From Candidatus Heimdallarchaeota archaeon (GTDB lineage Archaea; Asgardarchaeota; Heimdallarchaeia; Heimdallarchaeales; Heimdallarchaeaceae), in contig JAEOSZ010000037.1 in NCBI GenBank assembly GCA_016840095.1, forward strand, positions 1-21,029: a stretch of DNA of 21,029 nt, written 5' to 3'. Below the pieces are notes generated by a model. That model was given only the letters and a program-made list of their open reading frames with translations. It did no database searches and had not been told where the DNA came from. The translations under genes were made by a program, and so were the position numbers. Positions 8,237 through 21,029 of this stretch are shown one piece after another. How positions within the stretch are numbered: position 1 is the stretch's first letter; each line of letters opens with the position of its first letter.

Positions 8237-9277
8237 TTAATACTTCACAGGGCTTTCTATAAGAGAAACTTTCTTCTTCTCACAGTTAATTTCTGCTTTG
8301 CACCCTAATGGCATAATAAACTGAGGATCTGTATGACCGAAATCCATGTTAGTTACAATTGGTAAATCTGAATACCCAAACTCCTTACTTAACACTGTTA
8401 GAATTTGTCGATCTAATTCTTCTTTTTCTGTTGTATTATAATCTCTAGCTCGTCCAAACATTATCCCTTGAACATTCTCCATTATTCCTTGAACACAGTA
8501 ATTTCTTAGCATATACTTAACTTGGTCAGGAGAAGGTTTCTCTTCAGATGTCTCAAAAAACAATATTTTACCCTTCCAAAAATCTTTTTCTGGCCAGTAA
8601 CTGGTTCCCTTCATGAATTCTAGAACCTCTATGCAACCTCCAAAAAGCTCTCCTTGTACTTTAGATGAACCTTGCAGCCATTTCCATTGCACATATTCTG
8701 TTTGTTTTTCACCAATTTTTCCCGTATTATCTTTTTGTCCCCAATCAGGATATCCATCTATGTACTCATTATAGGGTTGATATTCATTTGTTTCTCTTGT
8801 TCTTGTAAGTATATCCTTGAAATGTTCAATTGCTTTTGGAAAATTCCTCATTTGACTAAATCCTGCCATGATAGCAGGACCATTAAAAGTCACTAAACCT
8901 AGTTGATTAGCATAAGTTAATAGAATAGTTGTATCAGAATATCCCATGATTATCTTAGGGTTCGATTTGATAACTTCATCATCAATATATGGTAAAATTC
9001 GTATAGAATCATCTCCACCTATAGAAGTAATTATCGCAGACACTTCCTCATCTTGAAATGCTGCATTAACGTCTTTGGCTCTTAATTCTGGATTTTCATG
9101 AAGAAAATCTGGATGTGCTTTTGTATTAGGAAATTCCTTTATTTCAAAACCCAATTCCTTTAGAACAGATAACCCATTTTCGTATATGTGTGGAAAGAAT
9201 TCTGGTCCACCCCATGAAGGTGAAATGACTCCTATCATATCTCCTTCTTGAAGTCTTTTTGGTTTGAAGAAATTCAT
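8237..9277 (-). CDS. S66-family peptidase (LD-carboxypeptidase / MccF-like)
   Basis: IGGDDS, GYSDTT (Ser), GGCIE, FFETSEE (Glu) and DFGHTDPQ (His) motifs. Confidence 0.92.
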   Translation of the reverse strand: MNFFKPKRLQEGDMIGVISPSWGGPEFFPHIYENGLSVLKELGFEIKEFPNTKAHPDFLHENPELRAKDVNAAFQDEEVSAIITSIGGDDSIRILPYIDDEVIKSNPKIIMGYSDTTILLTYANQLGLVTFNGPAIMAGFSQMRNFPKAIEHFKDILTRTRETNEYQPYNEYIDGYPDWGQKDNTGKIGEKQTEYVQWKWLQGSSKVQGELFGGCIEVLEFMKGTSYWPEKDFWKGKILFFETSEEKPSPDQVKYMLRNYCVQGIMENVQGIMFGRARDYNTTEKEELDRQILTVLSKEFGYSDLPIVTNMDFGHTDPQFIMPLGCKAEINCEKKKVSLIESPVKY

Positions 9278-9314
9278 CTTGTTCTTTTGAACAATATATT
9301 TTCAAAATTAAAAC

Positions 9315-9461
9315 TCATCGGTTTCTTATCATCTTAACTAATCCACAGTTTGGGCACTGAAACTTAGTTTGCTTATGGAATCCACCCTTTCTTTTAACAT
9401 GTTTCATTCCTACTCTCTTCTTCTGTTTTTTTCGACAACTTGGGCATTCCATTGTGTTCAT
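9315..9461 (-). CDS. Small basic CPxC/CPxCG zinc-finger microprotein (48 aa, or 45 aa from the second Met)
   Basis: Manual translation: MNTMECPSCRKKQKKRVGMKHVKRKGGFHKQTKFQCPNCGLVKMIRNR*. Below the ORF-track cutoff. A TTTTAAAT box lies upstream on the minus strand (~9479-9486). Confidence 0.8.
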   Translation of the reverse strand: MNTMECPSCRKKQKKRVGMKHVKRKGGFHKQTKFQCPNCGLVKMIRNR

Positions 9462-9560
9462 CAGTCTATCTGTGCTGAATTTAAAACACTTTGGAACTGT
9501 GCAATAACAATCAACACATAAGCTTCTTATTCAACCTTGTTTTTAATATTGTAGATTCTC

Positions 9561-9941
9561 ATGGATAGCAGTTCTGGCGAGAAGTATTCAATCGACACTT
9601 CAATTAAATTCAAACCTTTAGAACATATTAATATCTCTGATCTTATCAGTAAATGTGATAAGAATTGGCAGAATTTCTCCTTATGTCAAGTAAACGATTC
9701 TGTTGTTAGGTTGGGTGTAATAGAAGGAGAATTTCACTGGCATAAACATGACAAAGAGGATGAATTCTTTTATGTTATAGAAGGTAAATTATTAATTGAT
9801 TTAGAAGATCAAACCATTGAACTTAATCCTCATGATGCTTTTCTTGTTCCTAAGAAAGTTATGCACAAAACAAGAGCACCTGTTCGAACAGCTATTCTGA
9901 TGGTTGAAGGAGCAAATGTGAAACCCAGAGGAGATAAATAA
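9561..9941 (+). CDS. Cupin domain protein
   Basis: GEFHWHKHDKEDEFFYVIEG and VPKKVMHKT cupin motifs. Confidence 0.92.
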   Translation: MDSSSGEKYSIDTSIKFKPLEHINISDLISKCDKNWQNFSLCQVNDSVVRLGVIEGEFHWHKHDKEDEFFYVIEGKLLIDLEDQTIELNPHDAFLVPKKVMHKTRAPVRTAILMVEGANVKPRGDK

Positions 9942-10034
9942 CTTCTAGTATTTGAGCAGGAAAAGATTCAAGAAAGAAATACAAGTAACATTGTATTTAT
10001 CTGTTATTTTTTTCATTATTTTACTCCATTAATT

Positions 10035-10073
10035 GTAAAAAATAAAAAATGAAAGAGAGCTTTTTCTCTCTTT
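10035..10073 (-). terminator. Hairpin plus T-rich tract, putative terminator of the 10072-10746 gene
   Basis: Inverted repeat aaagagag (10052-10059) / ctctcttt (10066-10073), followed on the minus strand by cattttttattttt. Confidence 0.5.
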
Positions 10074-10746
10074 AGATATCTGTACTATCTATGAAGTAAA
10101 ATGCTAATATCATAGCAAAAACTGTTATTTTTTGTAATAAAGGTCCTAAGGGGGCAATACCACCGACAAGTTGATCCCAAGCAAAGAATACGAAGTACAC
10201 AACTAGTATAGCAAGTACAATGAGAGATAGGATTGCATCCCAAAGAGCATCTCCTTTACCAACATCAGACCAACCTTTTACATGTTTTCTAATTGTGCTT
10301 GATAATTGAAGATAAGCATTGAATGTTGCAAATCCACCAATAAAACATGCTGCTCCTGTAAGATGTAAAATTCTGAGAGAATGATCTAATGGAATGGCAA
10401 TTCCTCCAGCTCCGAATGCAAGGACTAAAGATAGAATTCCTTTTGGTATTCTTCCACGAAGTTCCTTATTTATGAAGTAGAGAATTGAAACTGATAAAGC
10501 TAGAAGACCACAAATACCGAATCCGAAAATCATTATATACATCGATGTTGTGTTTGGTAAACTAGATGTGAAACTCACCGTTCCTCCTAAGTTACTAATA
10601 TGTTCTTGAAAAGCATAGTATCTTTCAGGATACCAGAAAATTGCAAGAAATAAAGTCAAAACAAGAACATATGCCATGATAATAAAGATGTTCTTAATTA
10701 TGATCTGAATCCTCAGAGGAGGTTCATAATTTTTTGTAGATGACAT
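10072..10746 (-). CDS. Multi-pass membrane protein, DUF998-like
   Basis: About six hydrophobic segments, ISNLG after TM1, a His in a later helix and LQK in the last helix. Confidence 0.65.
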   Translation of the reverse strand: MSSTKNYEPPLRIQIIIKNIFIIMAYVLVLTLFLAIFWYPERYYAFQEHISNLGGTVSFTSSLPNTTSMYIMIFGFGICGLLALSVSILYFINKELRGRIPKGILSLVLAFGAGGIAIPLDHSLRILHLTGAACFIGGFATFNAYLQLSSTIRKHVKGWSDVGKGDALWDAILSLIVLAILVVYFVFFAWDQLVGGIAPLGPLLQKITVFAMILAFYFIDSTDI

Positions 10747-10846
10747 GATGAATAAATACTCAAAGTTATGTATAAAGTTTTCTTACTATTTTTGAGTAAG
10801 AGTTTTTTTCCCGAAGAGTTTAAATTTAGAGTCAATTCTTTAACTT

Positions 10847-12142
10847 ATGTCCCAAAATTCAAGATTAGTTATTAAGTCAGGTAATGTTTTCGATTCTATT
10901 GAAGGAAAACTTAAGGAAAATTTGACTATTGTTACCAAACATAATGAGATTGTTTGGGTGGGAGATGAGGGAAGTTTTGAACAGGAAGAAAATGACAAGG
11001 TTATAGACGCTACTGGAAAAACAGTTTTTCCTGGTATGATCGAATGCCATGTTCATCTTAGTGGAACTGGCACTCCCTTATATGAAAGAGAATATTTGCG
11101 AACTAAAAGAGACATGTGGAGTTATATTGCTCTAGATAATGCACAAAAACACTTAGCAAGTGGATTCACTTGTGTAAGAGATGCAGGTTGTTACAAAGGT
11201 GTGATTTCCTCTCTGAAAAGAATAATCAATGAAGGAGTTCTTGCTGGACCTAGATTAGTTGGTTCAGAAACAGGTATTTGGCAATGGGGTGATTCTGAAT
11301 CTATTGGACCTCAAGCTTTGATAGATTTTGAGAGAGAAGTATCTGTTGTTAAAGCTGGTGTAGATAATATCAAATATGCTGTTAGAGATCAGAAAAGACT
11401 TGGTGCAGACTTCATAAAAACTGCAACTACCGGAGGAGTTCTTCATGGGATGGAATCCAAAGTAAGTATGGTTCTCTGGACTGATGAAGAACTAGTTGCT
11501 ATTAGAGAAGAAGCTCATCGACTTGGAATGCATGTTGGTTGTCATGCTCATGGAGATGATGGAATACAAGCTGCAGTTAGAGCTGGTATTGATACAATCG
11601 AACATGGTAGTTTCATATCTGAAGAATCTGCAAAAATGATGGTTGAAAAAGGAACTTATCTTATTCCAACTCGATTAGCAATTGCATGTCTAGCTAGTTC
11701 CAATATCCATAAACAAATGCCTCCTGAAGTACAGAAGAAAATTATGGAGTGTTATAATGGTGAAAAGGAAAGACACACAATGGCTTTTGAAAAAGGAGTA
11801 AAAATAGCAATAGGAACTGATGCAGCAACCCCCGGCAATTTCCATGGTTGTACTGGTTTGGAAGTTAAGTTGATGGTTGATGATTATGGTATGACTCCTG
11901 TTCAAGCTATGCAAGCTGCAACTATAGAAGGAGCTCGTGCAATCTGGTTAGATGATAAAATTGGTTCAATTGAAAAAGGGAAATTTGCTGATATAGTTAT
12001 TTCTGATAAGAATCCTCTGGAAAATATTGATGTGGTAACAGATCCAAAGAATTTCTCTCATGTAATTAAAGATGGAAAAGTAATGGTTGAACGAGGAAGA
12101 ATAACTTACTTTTCACCAACTAAACAAATTCAATTGGATTAA
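10847..12142 (+). CDS. Metal-dependent amidohydrolase (Xaa-Pro dipeptidase-like subgroup)
   Basis: PGMIECHVH, GADFIK, CHAHG, IEHG, GTDA and GSIEKGKFAD motifs. Confidence 0.93.
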   Translation: MSQNSRLVIKSGNVFDSIEGKLKENLTIVTKHNEIVWVGDEGSFEQEENDKVIDATGKTVFPGMIECHVHLSGTGTPLYEREYLRTKRDMWSYIALDNAQKHLASGFTCVRDAGCYKGVISSLKRIINEGVLAGPRLVGSETGIWQWGDSESIGPQALIDFEREVSVVKAGVDNIKYAVRDQKRLGADFIKTATTGGVLHGMESKVSMVLWTDEELVAIREEAHRLGMHVGCHAHGDDGIQAAVRAGIDTIEHGSFISEESAKMMVEKGTYLIPTRLAIACLASSNIHKQMPPEVQKKIMECYNGEKERHTMAFEKGVKIAIGTDAATPGNFHGCTGLEVKLMVDDYGMTPVQAMQAATIEGARAIWLDDKIGSIEKGKFADIVISDKNPLENIDVVTDPKNFSHVIKDGKVMVERGRITYFSPTKQIQLD

Positions 12143-12200
12143 TTTCTAACTTTTTTTCTTTCTAGAATTCTTTATAAGTGCTTTTTCTCTTGCTTCTAAC

Positions 12201-13373
12201 ATGTTTAATGCCAAAAATCGCAGTCTCCGAAAGAGGTTTTTGTTGATTTTCACAATTACTATTTCGTTTATTTTTGTTGGTGGACTTTCTGAAGGTACTT
12301 CTCTTATTTTAGATTCTAATGAGATGTGTTGGATTTTGGATAGAATAAATATTATAGATGCTTGGGAGATCACAACTGGTGATCCTGATATTGTAGTAGC
12401 TGTCATTGATAGTGGCATTGATTTTTCACATTCTGATTTAATTGATAACCAATGGATCAACAAAGATGAGAAACCAGATAATGGGAAGGATGATGATAAT
12501 AACGGTTATATTGATGATAGATTCGGGTGGGATTTCTACTATGATGATAATGAACCCGGACCTGAAGGAATGGAACTCTATCATGGTCACGGAACATTTG
12601 TCGCTGGAATTATAGCTGCTTCAATGAATGGTTATGGAGTTGTTGGTGTTTCTCCAAATGTTAAAGTGATGAATCTTAGAGCTTTGGATAAATTTCTAGG
12701 ACATAGCTCCTATAATCTCTCTAAAGCTGTAAATTATGCTGTAGATAATGGTGCTGATGTAATTAATTTCTGTATTGATGGTGCTGATGCTGTAGCAGAG
12801 CTGAATGCTTCTATTGAGTATGCTTACGATAATAATGTAATCATGGTTGGATCTGTTGGTGGATTTGGGTGGACAAATAGAAGAATCTGGCCAAGAGAGT
12901 TCATCGAATTTCCTGCTGCCTATGATGAAGTTATTTGTGTTTCTGCAACTGATTATTATGATGGATATGCTAATTATAGTAATTGGGGTTACGGAATCGA
13001 TGTTTCTGCGCCTGGAGGAGAATTGGCAGATCCGATGATCTATTACCCTAATAGTACTTGGCATCCCGTTGGATATTCACAATTATATGGAATATCTCAT
13101 GTCCCTCAAGTTGCTGGAGTTGTAGCTCTGATGAAATCTCTGAATAGGTCTATCACCTTAGAACAGGCTAAAGAGTTCCTAACCACAACAGCTGTAGATA
13201 TAGGTGATCCAGGTTATGATGAATATTTTGGTCATGGGATGATTAATGCCACTGCTGCTGTTCTAGAAGCTGCGAAAATAGCTGAGACTAGTTTCATATT
13301 TGTTTCACTTGTAGCACCCCTTCTAATAGGATTAATAGTTTTCAAACGAAGACAGTTAAAAAAGTATAAATAA
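12201..13373 (+). CDS. Secreted, C-terminally anchored S8 subtilase with atypical active-site motifs
   Basis: VAVIDSG (Asp), HGTFVAG (His), GISHVPQVAG (Ser), DDDNNGYIDD insert and FGHGMINA. Signal peptide; C-terminal TM plus basic tail. Confidence 0.9.
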   Translation: MFNAKNRSLRKRFLLIFTITISFIFVGGLSEGTSLILDSNEMCWILDRINIIDAWEITTGDPDIVVAVIDSGIDFSHSDLIDNQWINKDEKPDNGKDDDNNGYIDDRFGWDFYYDDNEPGPEGMELYHGHGTFVAGIIAASMNGYGVVGVSPNVKVMNLRALDKFLGHSSYNLSKAVNYAVDNGADVINFCIDGADAVAELNASIEYAYDNNVIMVGSVGGFGWTNRRIWPREFIEFPAAYDEVICVSATDYYDGYANYSNWGYGIDVSAPGGELADPMIYYPNSTWHPVGYSQLYGISHVPQVAGVVALMKSLNRSITLEQAKEFLTTTAVDIGDPGYDEYFGHGMINATAAVLEAAKIAETSFIFVSLVAPLLIGLIVFKRRQLKKYK

Positions 13374-15310: not shown

Positions 15311-15712
15311 ATGGATAATATAAGAAAATGTGGCACAACTTGTGGTCATGTGAATTCTCTAATAGGTGGGTTCATGCTAGTTTTTCAAGGATTCTTAACA
15401 ATGATTGCTCAAGCTCAGTCAGCTAGAGGTCTAGAAGTAGTTGGAGGAATGTCCTTTCTAGCATTTACAGGAATATTTTGGTTAAATGGATTGATTATGC
15501 TTTTGCTAGGTGTATTAGTTCTCTTCTTGATTTGGGATTGGTTGCAAAAAACACTTAAAACAGGTCCATGGATTAAAGATGAATCTATAGTTGCAATAAT
15601 TCTAGTAGTTATTGGATTCATTACCGGAGGACCTGGAGGACTGTTTGTATTCTCTGGAGGGTTACTTACACTAGTGGGACAGACAAGAACAACTCAGTCA
15701 AATACTACATAG
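15311..15712 (+). CDS. Hypothetical membrane protein (Gly-rich, 3-4 TM helices)
   Basis: Hydrophobic ORF with an N-terminal CGTTCGH. Confidence 0.7.
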   Translation: MDNIRKCGTTCGHVNSLIGGFMLVFQGFLTMIAQAQSARGLEVVGGMSFLAFTGIFWLNGLIMLLLGVLVLFLIWDWLQKTLKTGPWIKDESIVAIILVVIGFITGGPGGLFVFSGGLLTLVGQTRTTQSNTT

Positions 15713-15734
15713 ATATGTGAAAAGAAAGATAAAC

Positions 15735-15761
15735 CAACCTCCCCAAGGTTGAAAAAATGAA
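15735..15761. repeat. 27-bp direct repeat, left copy (6-bp stem caacct/aggttg)
   Basis: caacctccccaaggttgaaaaaatgaa, 25/27 identical to 20722-20748. Confidence 0.85.
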
Positions 15762-15872
15762 TCTCCTGAACTCAGGTAATTCCACAGATTTTTCTAGTAT
15801 TTTTGTTATTTATATTCAGAATAACGAAATTATGGAAAACACTTTTGAATGTAGAGGTGAAGCAAACTAGTA

Positions 15873-16889
15873 TTGAAACTAAACAATTATCTCTCTAGAA
15901 TACTCATAGTTATATCTTTATTATCAATAATGAGTATCGGTTTAAATCATACAACTAGTAATGCTAAATGCATCGATGATAAACTAGAGTTTCAAGATAA
16001 TGGTAATTGTTTAGTTAATTCTCATAATACACTAATTGATATCAAAAACATTGATGATGTTGATGTTACCGAAACTTTCAGAATAACAAACACCAACCCA
16101 TTACAAATTTCCTACATCCATCTCTGGATCAATCATTCGTGCAGTAATATCAATGTAACAGATATTTCTGGGAGTTTAATTTTCGAAAAAATTGTAGAAG
16201 CAGACACCTATTGTTATTTGAAAATCTTCCTAAGATCAGAAATTCAACAAGATGAAACAGCAACCATTTATGTCTCATGTACTTTAAATGAAATCCCTTA
16301 CGATGAAGGTGTTAAGAGCTATTTCTTTGAATTTTGTTCTTCCATTACATACTTCACAGAAGTACATTATCTAATAGTAAGACTTCCAGAAGAAAGTTTC
16401 ATAGATGAGGATAGTGGATTAACAGCAATTTATCCTACAAATCAAGAACAAAGTTTCATAGGAAAACGATTGACTGTATCATGGTCTCATAGTAATTTGG
16501 CTCCTCTTTCGAATCCATTTTACATCATTAGATTCGATCCACCTGATAACCCAAATGCTCACATCTGGGCATACATCTTAGGACCGGTTTTGGGTGTTAT
16601 GATAGGTGTAGCTTGCACTTTATGGATTATGAGAAGAAGAGAAAAGAATGCAATTCAAAGTATGGGTACTATTTTCCTAAATGAATCACAAAAAATCTTA
16701 CTAAAAGCAATAGATGAAAGTGAAGGGAAAATAGCTCAGAAAGATTTGATGAATAAGACTGGTTTTACAAGATCTAAAACATCAAGGAATCTGATTTCTT
16801 TAGAGCAGCATGAATTTGTGACTAAAGAGAAGTGGGGTCGAAATAGTCTAATAAAGATCACAAAAAAAGGAGAGAGAATGATAAAATGA
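15873..16889 (+). CDS. Membrane-spanning winged-helix transcription regulator (signal peptide, extracellular domain, TM, cytoplasmic wHTH; COG2512-like)
   Basis: N-terminal hydrophobic signal and ~190 aa beta-rich domain. TM IWAYILGPVLGVMIGVACTLWIM followed by RRREK. Then LNESQKILL..GKIAQKDLMNKTGFTRSKTSRNLISLEQHEFVTKEKWGRNSLI wHTH. TTG start with AGGTGA at 15855-15860. Confidence 0.85.
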   Translation: MKLNNYLSRILIVISLLSIMSIGLNHTTSNAKCIDDKLEFQDNGNCLVNSHNTLIDIKNIDDVDVTETFRITNTNPLQISYIHLWINHSCSNINVTDISGSLIFEKIVEADTYCYLKIFLRSEIQQDETATIYVSCTLNEIPYDEGVKSYFFEFCSSITYFTEVHYLIVRLPEESFIDEDSGLTAIYPTNQEQSFIGKRLTVSWSHSNLAPLSNPFYIIRFDPPDNPNAHIWAYILGPVLGVMIGVACTLWIMRRREKNAIQSMGTIFLNESQKILLKAIDESEGKIAQKDLMNKTGFTRSKTSRNLISLEQHEFVTKEKWGRNSLIKITKKGERMIK

Positions 16890-16897
16890 ACAAACGT

Positions 16898-16946
16898 GAA
16901 ATGCTCTCAAAATGCTCCCGAAAAGAACTCGTCAAATGTTTAATTA
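16898..16946 (+). promoter_or_regulatory. Operator-like 11-bp direct-repeat array plus weak TATA (copy 1)
   Basis: gaaatgctctc / aaaatgctccc / gaaaagaactc at 16898, 16909 and 16920; tttaatta at 16939-16946. 16905-16933 matches 19336-19364 at 28/29. Confidence 0.75.
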
Positions 16947-16979
16947 GAAAAGAACTAATAATATTAAATAGGTGAAAAA

Positions 16980-19283
16980 ATGAAGTCAGTATGGAAATAT
17001 ATTATAGCAGTTACAGTCGGACTGATTGTATTGACTTCAGTTTTTGTACCAGTCTATTTATTTGTATGGAAGGACACTGATGACGATAAATACATACAAC
17101 ATGAACCAATTATCATATGGAATGATAGTGATTTTAGTGAATATGGCTTACCTGGACGTGGAACAAAAAATGACCCTTATCGAATAGAGAACTATAATAT
17201 CACAACAAGTGATTTGTATGCAATATACATCTTCGGTACAATAGACTACTTTGTGATAGAAAACTGTTATCTAGAAAGTTCAAATGAGGATGGCTATGGT
17301 ATATATATTGAAGGTGTTAACAAAGGAACAGCTAAAATATACAATAATACGCTTAGTAATTGCTATCATGGCATTGGTGTATTTTATACAGATGCACATC
17401 AAATTATTGACAATAAAATCACTTGTTGTGTAGTTCCTTTTAATTTAGAAAATTCCAAAGAGACGACGATATTTAGAAATACTATAAGTAATCCAGAAAG
17501 CGAGGCGAAACTGGATCCATCAGAGCTTAGTTGGGGACATTCAAGAATACTCTTCTGTGCTGGGATCACCTTCTCTCAAAATACTGTTCAATGGACTGGT
17601 TTATTATTGGATTTAGCTATTTACTTTTCTGAAAATTTGACCTTTGTTGATAATGACTTTCAGAATGTTGAACTATCTTTTTCAGTTTGTTCTAATAGTA
17701 CGATTGAAAATAATCTAAGTAGAGGTCGTGTGGTTAATTTATTCAGTTCTACTAACATTATTGTAAATGGTAATGACTTTTCTTCATTAAATGTTGTTGA
17801 CAGCCCTTATTCTATCATAACTAATAATTATTTAAGCCATTTTTCTATAGATTTTGATTACCTAGATGACTATTACACATGTACAATCGAAAATAATTGG
17901 GTTAATGATAAACTAATGAGTTTTTACATAGGATTGAATAATACCTACTTCACGACATCTATATCTGAATATGGTCAGATGGTTTTCGTAGGTTGTAACA
18001 ATATCACATTAAGCAATCCTACATTATTCGATCAAATCCTGCATTTAGATTTCTTGTATTGTGAGTATATTTCAGTACAAGATCTTGATTTACAATTATA
18101 CTTAGAATTCGAATCTACTGATTATATTGAAATAGAAAATAACAATATTCTTGGTTTCCAATTTGAATCATCAAATAATGTAACTATTGAAAATAATAGC
18201 ATTCTAGACCCTTCAGCGAATATAATGGGTGGAAACAATTATACAATAGCTAATAATGAAATTTCCAATCTAAAGTACGGGTTATATAGTTATTGTTTCA
18301 TAAACGAGGTTCAAAATCTACTAATGTATGGTAATAGAATCTTTGATTGCGAATATTCCTTAACAATGTACGAACTCTCTAATTCAGTGATTTTCAATAA
18401 TACATTTGAAAATGTCACTAGAGGTTTAAGACAAGCATGGCTCAGCAACAACGTGACAATCAGTAACAACACTATTATTAACAGCTTATACGGTGGCATT
18501 ACCCTTCATGGAACTAATGAAACAGCGTATCTTTCCTTGACATTTGAGAATAATTATGTCGATGGCAAACTCATAGGGTATTATGTCAATCTAGATAATG
18601 TTACTGTTGATACTGGAAACTATGCTCATGTCTTCTTTGTAAACTGCACGGGACTTACAGTGAAAGATTTAACTTTCTCAAATGTCTTTGCAGGTTTAAG
18701 TGTTTTATATTGTAATCAAACTACTATCAGCAATATAACCGTTAGCCATTCGGTACTTGGTATTGAGGTTTCCGAATGTTCAATAGTTTATCTAGCAAAC
18801 AATACTTGTAGTAATTCATCTACAGGCATAGATGTTGAATACAGTTCGTTAGTTTATCTTGAAAATAACACATGCCGGGAAAATGAGAATGGTATAGAAA
18901 TTTATCAATCTGCAAATTGTACTCTAGAATGGAATACCTTAATCAACAATTCAGAATCAGGAATTTTTCTGTATTCTAGCGTATATTGTAATATTACTTA
19001 CAACCTGCTAGAAGATAATTATTATTGGGGAATAGAGATGGACTGCTATGACAGTTTTAACAAAATATACAATAATGCCTTCATCAACAATAATTGGCAA
19101 GAAGAAGAGGAGTGGTATACTTCACAAGCATTTGATGTAGACCCCAGTAATATGTGGTATAATGAAATCACTTTAATGGGCAACTATTGGGACGACTGGA
19201 TTTCTGGAACATATGAACTAGATTATTATTCTGGTGTGTCTAGGAACTCTGATCCTTACCCTCTGATATCCAATCCTCTGTAG
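16980..19283 (+). CDS. N-terminally anchored right-handed parallel beta-helix (NosD/CASH-like) surface protein
   Basis: N-terminal TM, HEPIIIWNDSDF..GRGTKNDPYRIEN, many IxNN repeats and C-terminal GNYWDDW..DPYPL. GGTGA SD at 16971-16975. Confidence 0.88.
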   Translation: MKSVWKYIIAVTVGLIVLTSVFVPVYLFVWKDTDDDKYIQHEPIIIWNDSDFSEYGLPGRGTKNDPYRIENYNITTSDLYAIYIFGTIDYFVIENCYLESSNEDGYGIYIEGVNKGTAKIYNNTLSNCYHGIGVFYTDAHQIIDNKITCCVVPFNLENSKETTIFRNTISNPESEAKLDPSELSWGHSRILFCAGITFSQNTVQWTGLLLDLAIYFSENLTFVDNDFQNVELSFSVCSNSTIENNLSRGRVVNLFSSTNIIVNGNDFSSLNVVDSPYSIITNNYLSHFSIDFDYLDDYYTCTIENNWVNDKLMSFYIGLNNTYFTTSISEYGQMVFVGCNNITLSNPTLFDQILHLDFLYCEYISVQDLDLQLYLEFESTDYIEIENNNILGFQFESSNNVTIENNSILDPSANIMGGNNYTIANNEISNLKYGLYSYCFINEVQNLLMYGNRIFDCEYSLTMYELSNSVIFNNTFENVTRGLRQAWLSNNVTISNNTIINSLYGGITLHGTNETAYLSLTFENNYVDGKLIGYYVNLDNVTVDTGNYAHVFFVNCTGLTVKDLTFSNVFAGLSVLYCNQTTISNITVSHSVLGIEVSECSIVYLANNTCSNSSTGIDVEYSSLVYLENNTCRENENGIEIYQSANCTLEWNTLINNSESGIFLYSSVYCNITYNLLEDNYYWGIEMDCYDSFNKIYNNAFINNNWQEEEEWYTSQAFDVDPSNMWYNEITLMGNYWDDWISGTYELDYYSGVSRNSDPYPLISNPL

Positions 19284-19286
19284 TTA

Positions 19287-19303
19287 CTTTCTTTTTTCTC
19301 TTC
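19287..19303 (+). terminator. Pyrimidine/T-tract, putative archaeal terminator
   Basis: ctttcttttttctcttc immediately after the stop at 19283, implying the next gene has its own promoter. Confidence 0.45.
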
Positions 19304-19335
19304 TTACAGATAATTAATTCTATACTCTTTGATTG

Positions 19336-19377
19336 TCTCAAAATACTCCCGAAAAGAACTCGTCCAATATTTCATAA
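19336..19377 (+). promoter_or_regulatory. Operator-like box plus weak TATA (copy 2)
   Basis: tctcaaaatactcccgaaaagaactcgtc (19336-19364), then tttcataa (19370-19377). Spacing to the ATG is within 1 bp of copy 1. Confidence 0.75.
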
Positions 19378-19409
19378 GAATAGAGTACATCTTGTTAATA
19401 GGTGAAAAA

Positions 19410-20645
19410 ATGAAGAAAAATAGTATTAAAAAAATGGCTTTGTTCAGTTTTATTTTGACAATCCTGATGCTATCTCCTATGTACCCAGCATATGTGGTTG
19501 CTGCTCCAACTGATATTTTCGATGCTGGATTTGATACTCAAGTTGAAACACTGATGAATACAGCTAAGGTAGAATCTTTAGCTTTAAGCATTATCAATGG
19601 AACTGAAGTATTTTATGAAACAGGTTATGGTGAACAACCAGGAACTGATAAAGTATATTGTATTGTTACTATAAGTTCCATTGTTGCCGCAACAGCAATT
19701 TTACAACTTATGGAAGATGGACTATTAGATTTAGACGATCCTGTCAATGATTATCTACCTTGGTTACTAAGAAATCCTTACTATCCTTCTACTCCGATTA
19801 CTATTCTAGATGTACTCACCGAAAGAACAGGGCTAGCAACATATCAAGAAATTATAGAAGATGTGATGATTGTAGATGAAGCTCCATTTCCAGATTTCCT
19901 CAACTTAACCATAAATGAGAATGGATTGAATTATAGTATTAGCATGTGGTCAGATATTGAACCAGGAACAGCATGGCAACATTGTTGGATTCACTATGAT
20001 ATAGCAGCTTATTTAGTTGAATTAATAGCTGGTGAGTCATATGAACAGTACGTTGAGAAGAATATTTTCACTCCTTTAGGAATGACAAACACTGAATTCA
20101 CTTATACAAACTATACACTCAGTCAACTAGCTAAACAATACATCTGGAATACAACCTCTGGTGTTAATGAAGAACAGGATTTCTGGGATGATCCGGGTTT
20201 AGGATCTGTATCAATATACTCTACAGTTGGAGACCTGTCTAGATTTCTTATAGCTCACATGAACAAAGGAGTTTACAATTCAGTAAGAATATTAGAAGAA
20301 ACCTCCGTAGAGTTAATGCAAACAGAAGTTGCTGGTAGTGCTGGTTTATTTTGGGTAGATTATGGTAGGGATGATTATCAAGGATACAGAACTTATCCTT
20401 GGATTGGTGCAGCATCCATGATAACTAAAGCAAATGTAGGTGTCGTCGCTTTTTACAACCAAGGATTTTATAATTATTACCAAAAACTAAATGACATAAC
20501 AAATTATATATTCGCCAAAGCCAAAGAACTGATTCCCACACCACCTACTACACCAAGTGAAACTAGTTTAGGTTTCATTGCTATCCCCATGATGTTAGCC
20601 TTTCTAGGAATAGTTTCAATTTATAATAGAAGACGAAATAAATAG
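19410..20645 (+). CDS. Secreted, C-terminally anchored beta-lactamase/PBP-like (serine hydrolase family) protein with degenerate catalytic motifs
   Basis: GLLDLDDPVNDYLP, ITILDVLTERTGL, IFTPLGMTNT and STVGDLSRF match the family. The true start is probably ATG 19410 (GGTGA SD, signal peptide MKKNSIKK..), not TTG 19329. Pro/Thr linker, TM and RRRNK at the C-terminus. Confidence 0.88.
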   Translation: MKKNSIKKMALFSFILTILMLSPMYPAYVVAAPTDIFDAGFDTQVETLMNTAKVESLALSIINGTEVFYETGYGEQPGTDKVYCIVTISSIVAATAILQLMEDGLLDLDDPVNDYLPWLLRNPYYPSTPITILDVLTERTGLATYQEIIEDVMIVDEAPFPDFLNLTINENGLNYSISMWSDIEPGTAWQHCWIHYDIAAYLVELIAGESYEQYVEKNIFTPLGMTNTEFTYTNYTLSQLAKQYIWNTTSGVNEEQDFWDDPGLGSVSIYSTVGDLSRFLIAHMNKGVYNSVRILEETSVELMQTEVAGSAGLFWVDYGRDDYQGYRTYPWIGAASMITKANVGVVAFYNQGFYNYYQKLNDITNYIFAKAKELIPTPPTTPSETSLGFIAIPMMLAFLGIVSIYNRRRNK

Positions 20646-20721
20646 TTTATTTCACCTCTTTCTCTTTTTCTGAGGAACCATAAACACGAAGCTACATTAT
20701 AATAAGAATAAAAAAAGAAAT

Positions 20722-20748
20722 CAACCTCTCTAAGGTTGAAAAAATGAA
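20722..20748. repeat. 27-bp direct repeat, right copy; on the minus strand a hairpin followed by a T-tract
   Basis: caacctctctaaggttgaaaaaatgaa. Both differences from the left copy are in the 5-nt loop. Confidence 0.85.
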
Positions 20749-20831
20749 AAGGATTAGTAGACCCCATTTGTTGATTTTCAGCTAAAACTCTATGAGATTC
20801 TCGATTACAATCAGTAGAGATGAGATAAGAG

Positions 20832-21029
20832 TCATTCTTTTTCTGATATTGAATTTCTATTTATATTCAATTTATCAATACTTCTAATAAATGAATAAAT
20901 AACTCCAATTGTGATTATAATTAAGAAGATAAGAAATACTACTCGCATTGAAATTAAATAGTTTGGTGGATGTTCTAAACCCAATCCTGTTCTTTTCTCT
21001 AGTATTCTTTCTGCTAGATAAGATATTAG
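20832..21029 (-). CDS. Partial (C-terminal 65 aa) membrane protein entering from the right edge
   Basis: Open frame LISYLAERILEKRTGLGLEHPPNYLISMRVVFLIFLIIITIGVIYSFIRSIDKLNINRNSISEKE* with one TM; TGA at 20832-20834. Confidence 0.65.
   Translation of the reverse strand, partial: LISYLAERILEKRTGLGLEHPPNYLISMRVVFLIFLIIITIGVIYSFIRSIDKLNINRNSISEKE

What the first reader, a model, noticed from the sequence alone, without database searches (positions are those of the whole stretch)
15873..20645. Candidate archaeal transmembrane one-component signalling regulon: surface sensor-wHTH regulator plus two co-regulated surface proteins
Seen: the 338-aa protein has a signal peptide, extracellular domain, single TM and C-terminal wHTH. 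The two following genes encode unrelated surface proteins, yet share a near-identical upstream box, and a T-tract separates them. Established: ToxR/CadC-type regulators couple an extracytoplasmic sensor to a cytoplasmic wHTH and bind direct repeats, but their domain order is the reverse (wHTH N-terminal). Archaeal COG2512-like proteins with this architecture are, to my knowledge, largely uncharacterised. Inference: this regulator senses an external ligand and activates the two adjacent genes, so sensor, operator and outputs all lie within 5 kb.
Basis: partly seen in the sequence, partly recalled or inferred. Interest (0 to 1): 0.85.

Follow-up and report, generated by a model that had tools for sequence, protein, structure and literature searches.

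The report
Ribophorin-like membrane-tethered regulator with local regulon
A Heimdall (Asgard) archaeon encodes a membrane-anchored DNA-binding protein whose outer domain derives from ribophorin I/Ost1; it probably pairs with the surface protein encoded next door and switches that gene, plus a second surface-protein gene that carries a copy of the same promoter.

Summary
Gene 15873-16889 encodes signal anchor, beta-sandwich ectodomain, one TM and a cytoplasmic MarR-type winged helix (Pfam DUF7343). It is followed by a NosD-type beta-helix gene and a beta-lactamase-fold gene. Both carry a 37-nt box (3 mismatches) found nowhere else in the 3.4-Mb assembly.

New here:
- The ectodomain is homologous to the membrane-proximal domain of Asgard Ost1/ribophorin I (hhalign 94.7-96.6%; fold Z 17-18).
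- In 33 loci of the genus the regulator is followed by a beta-helix gene (17) or by another anchored surface protein, 'X' (15), usually across a ~90-nt spacer.
- The spacers hold clade-specific repeats phased at 10-11 bp upstream of a TATA-like element.
- The second box is a duplicate of the whole spacer, seen only in this genome among 25.
- A paralogous locus (C91) has its own phased GTACC boxes before two beta-lactamase-fold genes.
- A complex model supports binding of the ectodomain to the N-terminal cap of the beta-helix protein (0.74 against 0.00 for controls).

Best reading, about 60%: a transmembrane transcription regulator working with a co-encoded surface partner (ToxR/ToxS-like logic) on a two-promoter regulon. 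DNA binding, the signal and the sign of regulation are inferred. The scan has reported the same family in other Heimdall genomes (e1-547122, e1-5662277, e1-1494640).

The parts
15705..15761 (.). Left copy of a 57-nt hairpin-containing repeat that brackets the three-gene block
   Evidence: the repeat finder D1, 77% identical to 20692-20748. Terminator-like hairpin on the minus strand. Only 3 such hairpins in the genome.
15873..16889 (+). REG: membrane-tethered wHTH regulator gene (338 aa, TTG start)
15873..15944 (+). N-terminal signal peptide or signal anchor (aa 1-24)
   Evidence: Hydrophobic helix 3-22 in the AF2 model, conserved in homologues.
16005..16550 (+). Ectodomain (aa 45-226), Ost1/ribophorin-I-like beta-sandwich
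   Evidence: Foldseek and VIA top hits are yeast and human Ost1/RPN1, Z 17-18. hhalign against 11 heimdallarchaeial Ost1 homologues: 94.7%, E 6e-8 for the ectodomain alone; reversed control 0.2%.
16566..16631 (+). Transmembrane helix (about aa 232-253), followed by RRREK
   Evidence: Sequence, alignment, AF2 helix 227-265.
16674..16886 (+). Cytoplasmic MarR-type winged helix (aa 268-338); recognition helix aa 300-312
   Evidence: Pfam DUF7343. MarR structures Z about 14, rmsd 1.0-1.3 A over about 70 aa. PDB profile hits to MarR and Lrs14.
16890..16979 (+). REG-to-BH spacer: putative regulated promoter of the beta-helix gene
   Evidence: Aligns without gaps with orthologous spacers. The CM finds it only downstream of REG genes. 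No RNA structure.
16899..16941 (+). Phased repeats / box copy 1 (ATGCTC at 16901 and 16912, 11 bp apart)
16934..16947 (+). Conserved TATA-like element (inferred)
   Evidence: Conserved columns 48-61 of A2. Its position about 33-46 nt before the ATG fits a short SD-bearing leader. This is inference.
16970..16975 (+). Shine-Dalgarno AGGTGA, 4 nt (AAAA) before ATG 16980
   Evidence: Sequence; identical at 19400-19405.
16980..19283 (+). BH: NosD-type parallel beta-helix surface protein (767 aa), N-terminal anchor, 26 N-x-S/T sequons
   Evidence: Residues 42-192 form the predicted interface with REG.
19284..19309 (+). T-rich tract after the BH stop (likely archaeal terminator)
   Evidence: Sequence.
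19318..19409 (+). Duplicate of the whole REG-to-BH spacer, placed before the beta-lactamase-fold gene
   Evidence: CM score 75.8-76.6 bits, as high as true spacers. 85% identical to copy 1 over columns 16-62.
19336..19372 (+). Box copy 2
19410..20645 (+). BLA: surface-anchored beta-lactamase-fold pseudoenzyme (411 aa)
   Evidence: PF00144. SxxK is replaced by T-I-S-S and YxN by H-C-W in alignments to 2qmi and 4y7p. Signal peptide and C-terminal TM.
20692..20748 (.). Right copy of the bracketing hairpin repeat

Best explanation
REG is a transmembrane transcription regulator (TTR). Its ectodomain and TM derive from the membrane-proximal half of Ost1/ribophorin I. The cytoplasmic tail is a minimal MarR-type winged helix held about 20 residues from the membrane.

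Several tethered winged helices are proposed to bind a row of short repeats spaced one helical turn apart, so that all lie on one face of the DNA. The repeats sit directly upstream of a weak TATA-like element in the ~90-nt spacer and control transcription of the adjacent beta-helix gene, most likely by activation.

Outside the cell, the ectodomain is predicted to sit on the membrane-proximal N-terminal cap of that same beta-helix protein. The pair would then work like ToxR/ToxS or TcpP/TcpH, with the partner's state or abundance, or a ligand it binds, setting the regulator's activity.

In this genome the whole spacer was copied in front of a surface-anchored beta-lactamase-fold pseudoenzyme gene. 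That recruits the gene into a two-promoter local regulon.

Shown computationally: architecture, homology, conserved synteny, the unique and conserved spacer, the phasing. Supported by a model only: ectodomain-partner binding. Inferred: DNA binding, activation, the nature of the signal.
For: Architecture and topology.

MarR-type wHTH.

Ost1 homology:
- Fold Z 17-18, above M1-peptidase N-domains at about 14.
- hhalign 96.6%, E 6.5e-10 for the whole protein; 94.7%, E 6e-8 for the ectodomain alone; reversed control 0.2%.

Conserved pairing:
- All 5 paralogues in this genome and all loci inspected in relatives have REG followed by a surface-protein gene.
- Of 33 distinct loci, 17 have BH and 14 have X immediately downstream; one more has X about 270 nt further on.

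Spacer:
- Gapless alignment among orthologues whose proteins are only about 50% identical.
- The CM gives 51-80 bits only for REG-downstream spacers plus the window's bla promoter, and at most 23 bits elsewhere in 25 genomes.

Phasing:
- 4-mer self-matches at lag 11 are 2.2 against 0.24 in shuffles over 30 spacers.
- The signal is seen separately in three clades, at lag 10 or 11.

Repeat sequence tracks the recognition helix (by eye):
- TR(S/A)KT with CTCYC / TGTCTC-type repeats.
- (T/S)KSKI/V with GTT(G/T)C.
- TKNKV with GTACC.

Independent paralogous regulons in the same genome:
- GTACC pairs at 10-12 bp occur 6 times genome-wide. Three are in the 7.5-kb C91 contig, before its two beta-lactamase-fold genes.
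- [GC]TTTCA pairs at 11 bp occur 12 times genome-wide. Two are in C82, upstream of REG and in the REG-to-BH spacer.

Complex model:
- Score 0.74, the median of runs 0.00, 0.74 and 0.75. Best of 3 controls 0.00.
- The mark was reached by 58 of 80 solved complexes and 2 of 110 mismatched pairs. These counts hold only roughly, because my own alignments were used.
- Runs agree in at least 0% of contacts. Partner pLDDT is at least 67.
- The interface is BH 42-192 with REG 50-70, 128-131, 164-168 and 192-207.

No RNA structure and no Rfam family in the spacer.
Against:
- The TATA assignment is inferred. A genome-wide scan gave no sharp TATA position relative to starts.
- The two window boxes are similar by descent (promoter duplication), so their similarity alone does not prove a shared regulator.
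- The recognition helix is highly conserved (SRNL invariant) while the repeats differ a lot. The helix-repeat correlation rests on 2-3 independent clades read by eye.
- The REG-to-BH spacer of C91 has its AGTAC[CT] copies 23 bp apart, not 11.
- One of three complex runs failed (0.00), so agreement between runs is not established.
- No T-tract follows REG, so BH may also be read through from the REG promoter.
Confidence: 0.6

Rival explanations
1. REG is a biogenesis factor rather than a signal transducer. It would be an Ost1-like, substrate-specific helper for secretion or N-glycosylation of its cognate surface protein. Its winged helix would tether the gene, or its transcript or ribosome, to the membrane site of export (transertion-type coupling), with no signal-dependent switching.
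For: - Homology to Ost1.
- The cytoplasmic tail of canonical Asgard OST1 binds ribosomes (PMC11417166). In REG a nucleic-acid-binding wHTH occupies that position.
- Strict one-to-one pairing with a secreted partner.
- BH is rich in sequons: 26 against 16.1 +/- 3.3 in shuffles.
- The complex model supports an ectodomain-BH contact (0.74 against 0.00 for controls; 58/80 against 2/110; run agreement at least 0%; partner pLDDT at least 67).
Against: - A separate canonical Ost1 is present as a single copy here and in 39 of 41 genomes of the class.
- REG keeps only one of the two lumenal domains and misses the Pfam Ribophorin_I model.
- Repeats upstream of a TATA-like element, changing with the regulator clade, are what a classic operator looks like.
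- The bla gene shares the promoter although it is a different kind of protein.
Confidence: 0.15
2. There is no dedicated regulation. The shared sequence is a promoter and leader duplicated by recombination and kept by general promoter constraints. REG may bind elsewhere or not bind DNA at all.
For: - The second copy is a duplicate of the whole ~90-nt spacer including SD and start context.
- It occurs in only one of 25 genomes.
- The block is bracketed by repeats, which suggests rearrangement.
Against: - The upstream, non-core part of the spacer is conserved across orthologues and is unique in the genome.
- The 10-11-bp phasing recurs in three clades with different repeat sequences.
- Paralogous loci C91 and C82 show their own locus-restricted phased motifs at several promoters.
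Confidence: 0.12
3. The conserved spacer acts as RNA: a leader, riboswitch or processing site shared by the two mRNAs.
For: The conserved stretch lies between a stop codon and the next start, and REG has no terminator of its own.
Against: - RNAalifold finds no pairs in 8 aligned spacers.
- No Rfam match in 15500-21029 apart from a chance hit at E 0.09 elsewhere.
- Conservation has an 11-nt direct-repeat pattern, not a stem pattern.
- The two copies share no reading frame, so a leader peptide is excluded (sequence).
Confidence: 0.03

Closest known systems
Transmembrane transcription regulators (TTRs) of the ToxR/ToxS, TcpP/TcpH and CadC type (bacteria); class surveyed by Demey et al. 2023, PMC10269533
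   Same: - One polypeptide joins an extracytoplasmic domain, a single TM and a cytoplasmic winged helix.
- The DNA sites are direct repeats upstream of the target promoter.
- The regulator gene is followed by the gene of an extracytoplasmic partner that (in the model) binds the outer domain.
- The class is reported as common in archaea.
   Different: - Domain order is reversed: the outer domain is N-terminal and the wHTH C-terminal.
- The wHTH is MarR/DUF7343-type, not OmpR-type.
- The outer domain is Ost1-like.
- The partner is a 767-aa beta-helix surface protein with its own promoter inside the spacer.
- The survey does not mention Asgard or this family (0 occurrences of 'Asgard' or 'MarR').
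ArnR / ArnR1 of Sulfolobus acidocaldarius (PMC6396743)
   Same: Archaeal, membrane-bound one-component activators that bind promoters of surface-structure genes and form oligomers.
   Different: From my own knowledge of the published architecture, ArnR has an N-terminal HTH and C-terminal TM segments with no large ectodomain. There is no sequence relation, and it is regulated by phosphorylation.
Ost1 / ribophorin I of the oligosaccharyltransferase (eukaryotes; Asgard homologues, PMC10307638, PMC11417166)
   Same: The ectodomain and the following TM are homologous to the membrane-proximal lumenal domain and TM. Same type I topology.
   Different: - Only one of the two lumenal domains is present.
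- No match to Pfam PF04597.
- The cytoplasmic ribosome-binding helical bundle is replaced by a wHTH.
- REG is multi-copy and paired with surface-protein genes, whereas the canonical gene (C14, 697 aa) is single-copy.
MarR-family regulators
   Same: Winged-helix core superposes at rmsd 1.0-1.3 A. Some clades have palindromic sites.
   Different: Lacks the MarR dimerisation helices. It scores below the Pfam MarR cut-offs (20.4 against 27 bits). It is membrane-tethered.

Membership tests
Transmembrane transcription regulators (TTR; definition of PMC10269533: a predicted TM region plus a predicted DNA-binding domain) | At least one TM region and a DNA-binding domain in one protein | tested here: met
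   TM at about aa 232-253 and a DUF7343/MarR-type wHTH at aa 268-338. Definition read.
Transmembrane transcription regulators (TTR) | Regulates transcription while in the membrane | not testable with these tools
   Only indirect evidence: a conserved phased operator-like array next to the gene.
ToxR/CadC/TcpP family | N-terminal cytoplasmic OmpR-type wHTH followed by a TM and a C-terminal periplasmic domain | tested here: not met
   The order is reversed, and the wHTH matches MarR/IclR/DUF7343 models, not OmpR-type.
ToxR/CadC/TcpP family | Co-encoded extracytoplasmic partner that binds the outer domain (ToxS, TcpH) | tested here: inconclusive
   The partner gene is always adjacent. The complex model supports binding: 0.74 against 0.00 for controls; 58/80 against 2/110; run agreement at least 0%; partner pLDDT at least 67. 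No experiment.
Pfam DUF7343 (PF24034) winged helix | Score above the gathering cut-off | tested here: met
   39.2 bits against 27.6. All 23 aligned homologues hit, best E 4.3e-15.
MarR family | wHTH core | tested here: met
   Z about 14, rmsd 1.0-1.3 A to MarR structures.
MarR family | N- and C-terminal dimerisation helices; Pfam MarR/MarR_2 above cut-off | tested here: not met
   Only about 70 residues lie beyond the juxtamembrane helix. MarR_2 scores 20.4 against 27 bits and MarR 16 against 24.6.
Ost1 / ribophorin I (PF04597) | Match to the Pfam Ribophorin_I model | tested here: not met
   No hit at E up to 10 in any of 23 members. The genome's canonical copy does hit, at 59 bits.
Ost1 / ribophorin I (PF04597) | Homology of the lumenal beta-sandwich plus TM | tested here: met
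   hhalign 96.6% (whole protein) and 94.7% (ectodomain only) against 11 heimdallarchaeial Ost1 homologues; reversed control 0.2%. Best fold matches are Ost1/RPN1.
Ost1 / ribophorin I (PF04597) | Two tandem lumenal domains and a cytoplasmic helical ribosome-binding domain | tested here: not met
   One beta-sandwich only, and the tail is a wHTH. The canonical paralogue has both features (PMC11417166).

The most novel reading that the evidence does not exclude
In the archaeal class closest to eukaryotes, duplicates of the OST subunit Ost1/ribophorin I have exchanged the ribosome-binding tail for a sequence-specific DNA-binding domain. Each copy then holds the promoter of one surface-glycoprotein gene at the membrane while its outer domain grips that same protein. 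This would be a gene-specific coupling of transcription, export and glycosylation (programmed transertion) rather than ordinary signal sensing.
Probability: 0.12. Interest if true: 0.9.

Novelty: new variant of a known kind. Interest (0 to 1): 0.68.

Why it matters
Membrane-tethered transcription factors are counted by the thousand in surveys, but in archaea only ArnR/ArnR1 have been studied. How such proteins reach DNA from the membrane remains an open question.

This locus puts every component within 5 kb:
- the regulator;
- a predicted partner;
- a short operator-like array whose helical phasing fits binding from one side, the membrane;
- two target promoters;
- four paralogous systems in the same genome, with different repeat sequences, as natural specificity controls.

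It also shows an eukaryotic-signature protein domain (ribophorin I) being reused outside glycosylation in Heimdallarchaeia. That bears on how the OST and translocon accessory subunits diversified before eukaryogenesis.

Tried and rejected
- RNA element: RNAalifold found no pairs and Rfam nothing relevant.
- Leader peptide: the two copies are not in a common frame.
- Genome-wide repeat or generic promoter motif: the box is unique to the two sites.
- Sigma-70-type scan: not informative for an archaeon, with counts equal to shuffles.
- Genome-wide TATA position relative to SD-led starts: no sharp peak, so it could not support the TATA assignment.
- Pfam Ribophorin_I on 23 members: no hit.
- A single-sequence hhalign gave only 45% before the profile-profile run.
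- ESM Atlas on the ectodomain: scores of 0.82 only, with a Ribophorin I cluster at rank 7. This is a lead, not evidence.
- NCBIfam: nothing above cut-off for REG or BH.
- Autoregulation: only weak spacer-like matches just upstream of REG in two relatives (E 0.04 and 0.09), and none significant in the window.
- The bracketing hairpin as a common element: only 3 copies in this genome. It recurs near orthologues of the 133-aa gene in relatives, and its meaning is left open.
Full report
WHAT IS THERE. The window is a whole 21-kb contig (C6) of a 3.44-Mb, 89%-complete assembly with about 33% GC. Relatives carrying the same gene family are deposited as 'Candidatus Heimdallarchaeota archaeon' MAGs.

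Three co-oriented genes fill 15873-20645:
- REG (338 aa) has an N-terminal hydrophobic helix, a beta-rich ectodomain, one TM followed by RRREK, and a C-terminal winged helix. The winged helix matches Pfam DUF7343 above cut-off and MarR/IclR models below it.
- BH (767 aa) is a NosD-type parallel beta-helix with an N-terminal anchor.
- BLA (411 aa from ATG 19410) has the beta-lactamase fold, a signal peptide and a C-terminal TM anchor.

The 37-nt box occurs at 16905-16941 and 19336-19372 with 3 mismatches. None is expected by chance, and there is no third copy in the genome. A T-rich tract follows the BH stop.

THE BOX IS PART OF A WHOLE DUPLICATED PROMOTER. The two upstream regions align over about 90 nt down to an identical AGGTGA-N5-ATG context. 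The REG-to-BH spacer aligns without gaps with the spacers of orthologous pairs in other genomes, although those proteins are only about 50% identical.

A sequence-only covariance model of eight spacers was searched in all 25 genomes of the genus:
- It gave 51-80 bits only for sequences directly downstream of REG genes, plus the window's bla promoter.
- Everything else scored 23 bits or less.
- With filters off on 99 kb, the gap was at least 62 bits against at most 12.

So the box never occurs strongly without the regulator. The copy in front of bla is a lineage-specific duplication of the entire spacer. Over the repeat-plus-TATA part it is 85% identical both to copy 1 and to the G023 orthologue.

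THE REGULATOR-PARTNER PAIR IS THE CONSERVED UNIT.
- This genome has four further REG paralogues at 34-38% identity. Each is immediately followed by a beta-helix gene.
- Across 33 distinct REG loci of the genus, 17 are followed by a beta-helix gene and 14 by a different anchored surface protein, 'X'. X has 330-430 aa, a signal peptide, a C-terminal TM and no Pfam family. One more locus has X about 270 nt further on, and the last locus ends too early to tell.
- Each REG clade keeps to one partner family.
- With a profile, the family is found in 88 of 201 sampled genomes of the phylum. In the other genera and families inspected, the adjacent conserved gene is X, either upstream or downstream.
- A library-wide profile search gives 3113 representatives at E up to 1e-3 and 704 at up to 1e-10. 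These include full-length matches from Hydrothermarchaeota and Undinarchaeales MAGs. The layout is therefore widespread and unnamed.

THE SPACER LOOKS LIKE AN OPERATOR ARRAY IN FRONT OF A WEAK PROMOTER. Directly after the REG stop, the spacers contain short repeats, then a conserved TATA-like element about 33-46 nt before the ATG, then the SD.
- Over 30 distinct spacers, 4-mer self-matches peak at lag 11 (2.2 against 0.24 in shuffles), with lag 10 and a 22-23 harmonic also raised.
- The peak appears separately in three clades.
- The repeat sequence changes with the clade and, by eye, with recognition-helix residues: CTCYC-type repeats with ..R(S/A)KT.., GTT(G/T)C with ..KSK(I/V).., GTACC with ..KNKV...
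- Some X-partner clades have perfect palindromes instead.
- In the window, ATGCTC occurs at 16901 and 16912. That pair at 11 bp is unique in the genome.

Helical phasing puts all sites on one face of the DNA. This is the geometry expected for a row of domains that all approach from the membrane (inference).

INDEPENDENT SUPPORT FROM PARALOGOUS LOCI.
- In contig C91 the order is bla-fold, bla-fold, REG, BH, amidohydrolase. GTACC pairs at 10-12 bp occur six times in the whole genome. Three of them lie in this 7.5-kb contig, in the promoters of the two bla-fold genes. The local REG-to-BH spacer has AGTAC[CT] twice, 23 bp apart.
- In C82, two of the genome's twelve [GC]TTTCA pairs at 11 bp lie upstream of REG and in the REG-to-BH spacer.

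Locus-restricted phased motifs at several promoters therefore recur. Beta-lactamase-fold genes have been tied to REG loci twice.

WHAT THE ECTODOMAIN IS. The AF2 model (pLDDT 82.6) was searched against the PDB.
- Its best matches are Ost1/ribophorin I of the yeast and human oligosaccharyltransferase (Foldseek E 1.5e-9; VIA Z 17-18, e.g. 7oci_A at rmsd 2.3 A over 174 residues).
- These stand above the N-domains of M1 aminopeptidases at Z about 14.
- Pfam Ribophorin_I does not hit any of 23 members.
- The genome has a separate canonical copy: C14, 697 aa, with a coiled-coil tail. That gene is single-copy in 39 of 41 genomes of the class.
- A profile-profile comparison of the REG family with eleven heimdallarchaeial Ost1 homologues gives 96.6% probability (E 6.5e-10). 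It aligns the REG ectodomain plus TM to the membrane-proximal lumenal domain plus TM.
- The ectodomain alone gives 94.7% (E 6e-8). A reversed control gives 0.2%.

REG is therefore a truncated Ost1 paralogue. The cytoplasmic helical domain binds ribosomes in the canonical Asgard protein (PMC11417166). In REG it is replaced by a wHTH.

DOES IT TOUCH ITS NEIGHBOUR? One complex job was run with BH (full length) and REG aa 44-262, both as alignments.
- Score 0.74, the median of runs 0.00, 0.74 and 0.75. Best of three controls 0.00.
- The mark was reached by 58 of 80 solved complexes and 2 of 110 mismatched pairs. These counts hold only roughly, because my own alignments were used.
- The runs agree in at least 0% of contacts. 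Partner pLDDT is at least 67.
- The interface joins one sheet of the REG sandwich (50-70, 128-131, 164-168, 192-207) to the N-terminal cap of BH (42-192).
- Both regions are membrane-proximal, and the BH cap is the most conserved part of the BH paralogues.

This is a model's confidence, not a measurement. It fits the strict one-to-one pairing.

THE OUTPUTS.
- BH is a generic parallel beta-helix (NosD repeats, below subfamily cut-offs). It has 26 N-x-S/T sequons against 16.1 +/- 3.3 in shuffles.
- BLA lacks the catalytic motifs: T-I-S-S replaces SxxK and H-C-W replaces YxN, in alignments to 2qmi and 4y7p. The C91 paralogues keep the Ser but have Phe for the Lys. These are probably surface binding proteins.

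MECHANISM AND RIVALS. The best-supported reading (about 0.6) is a transmembrane transcription regulator with a co-encoded partner, acting on the spacer promoter and its duplicate. Activation is inferred from the position of the repeats upstream of a weak TATA.

Rivals:
- An Ost1-like biogenesis or transertion factor without switching (0.15).
- A duplicated promoter without a dedicated regulator (0.12).
- An RNA element (0.03; no structure, no Rfam family).

COMPARISON WITH WHAT IS KNOWN. The class is known. TTRs are reported as widespread in bacteria and archaea (PMC10269533), and ArnR/ArnR1 are studied archaeal examples (PMC6396743). This family differs in four ways:
- the domain order;
- the MarR-type wHTH;
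- the Ost1-derived ectodomain;
- obligatory pairing with a surface-protein gene.

I found no paper naming DUF7343.

Earlier agents of this scan reached the same core reading on other Heimdall genomes (e1-547122, e1-5662277) and noted that the family is widespread (e1-1494640). New in this window:
- the duplicated promoter, which gives a two-gene regulon;
- the GTACC regulon of C91;
- the two partner families;
- the complex model.

LIMITS.
- Everything is computational.
- The genomes are MAGs (this one 89% complete, 7.8% contamination).
- Related genomes are not independent samples.
- The helix-repeat correlation was read by eye.

Noticed in passing
window 15705-15761 and 20692-20748: A 57-nt repeat (77% identical) with a hairpin (CAACCT-N4-AGGTTG) brackets the REG-BH-BLA block exactly. 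Only 3 such hairpins exist in the genome (the third is on C27). In relatives, 2-3 copies cluster around orthologues of the 133-aa gene 15311-15712. This may mark an insertion or rearrangement of the block.
   Followed up: partly
window 19410-20645; L009:4476-5813 and L009:5894-7246 (contig C91): The beta-lactamase-fold proteins next to REG loci lack the catalytic Lys of SxxK. The window copy also lacks the Ser and the YxN motif. All keep a signal peptide and a C-terminal TM anchor, so they are likely surface-anchored pseudoenzymes or binding proteins.
   Followed up: partly
L045:13478-14536 (G001:C2), L112:7319-8389, L113:7422-8501 and relatives: The alternative REG partner 'X' (no Pfam or NCBIfam family) folds into a beta-supersandwich with a C-terminal TM. 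Its best PDB matches are the lysosomal membrane protein GLMP (6nyq_C E 9e-7; 8r8q_B, the MFSD1-GLMP peptide transporter), at TM-scores of only about 0.5. In two complete genomes the gene order is MFS transporter, REG, X.
   Followed up: partly
L011:6705-7907 (contig C33 of the same genome): In this paralogue the REG reading frame has no stop at the usual place. It runs on for about 37 codons through the repeat-bearing spacer and overlaps the BH start (400-aa frame).
   Followed up: no
L042:674-742 (G023:C76) and L046:9687-9751 (G020:C5): Weak spacer-like matches (E 0.04 and 0.09) lie just upstream of REG genes of one clade, hinting at autoregulation. Nothing comparable is significant upstream of the window's REG.
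   Followed up: partly
window 8237-13373: The genes upstream on the contig include an S66 LD-carboxypeptidase, a cupin, an amidohydrolase and an S8 subtilase. With the beta-lactamase-fold and beta-helix proteins, this gives a peptide or cell-wall-scavenging flavour to the neighbourhood.
   Followed up: no
window 15873 vs 15930: The public gene call for REG (319 aa, P0001) starts at ATG 15930 and removes the signal anchor. The TTG at 15873 fits the homologues, but its SD (GGTGA at 15856-15860) is 12 nt away, further than at the two downstream genes.
   Followed up: partly
L080:1012-3105 (contig C14 of the same genome): The canonical Ost1/ribophorin I homologue (697 aa) has a long charged coiled-coil-like cytoplasmic tail of about 150 aa. 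This is the part that REG replaced with a winged helix.
   Followed up: partly
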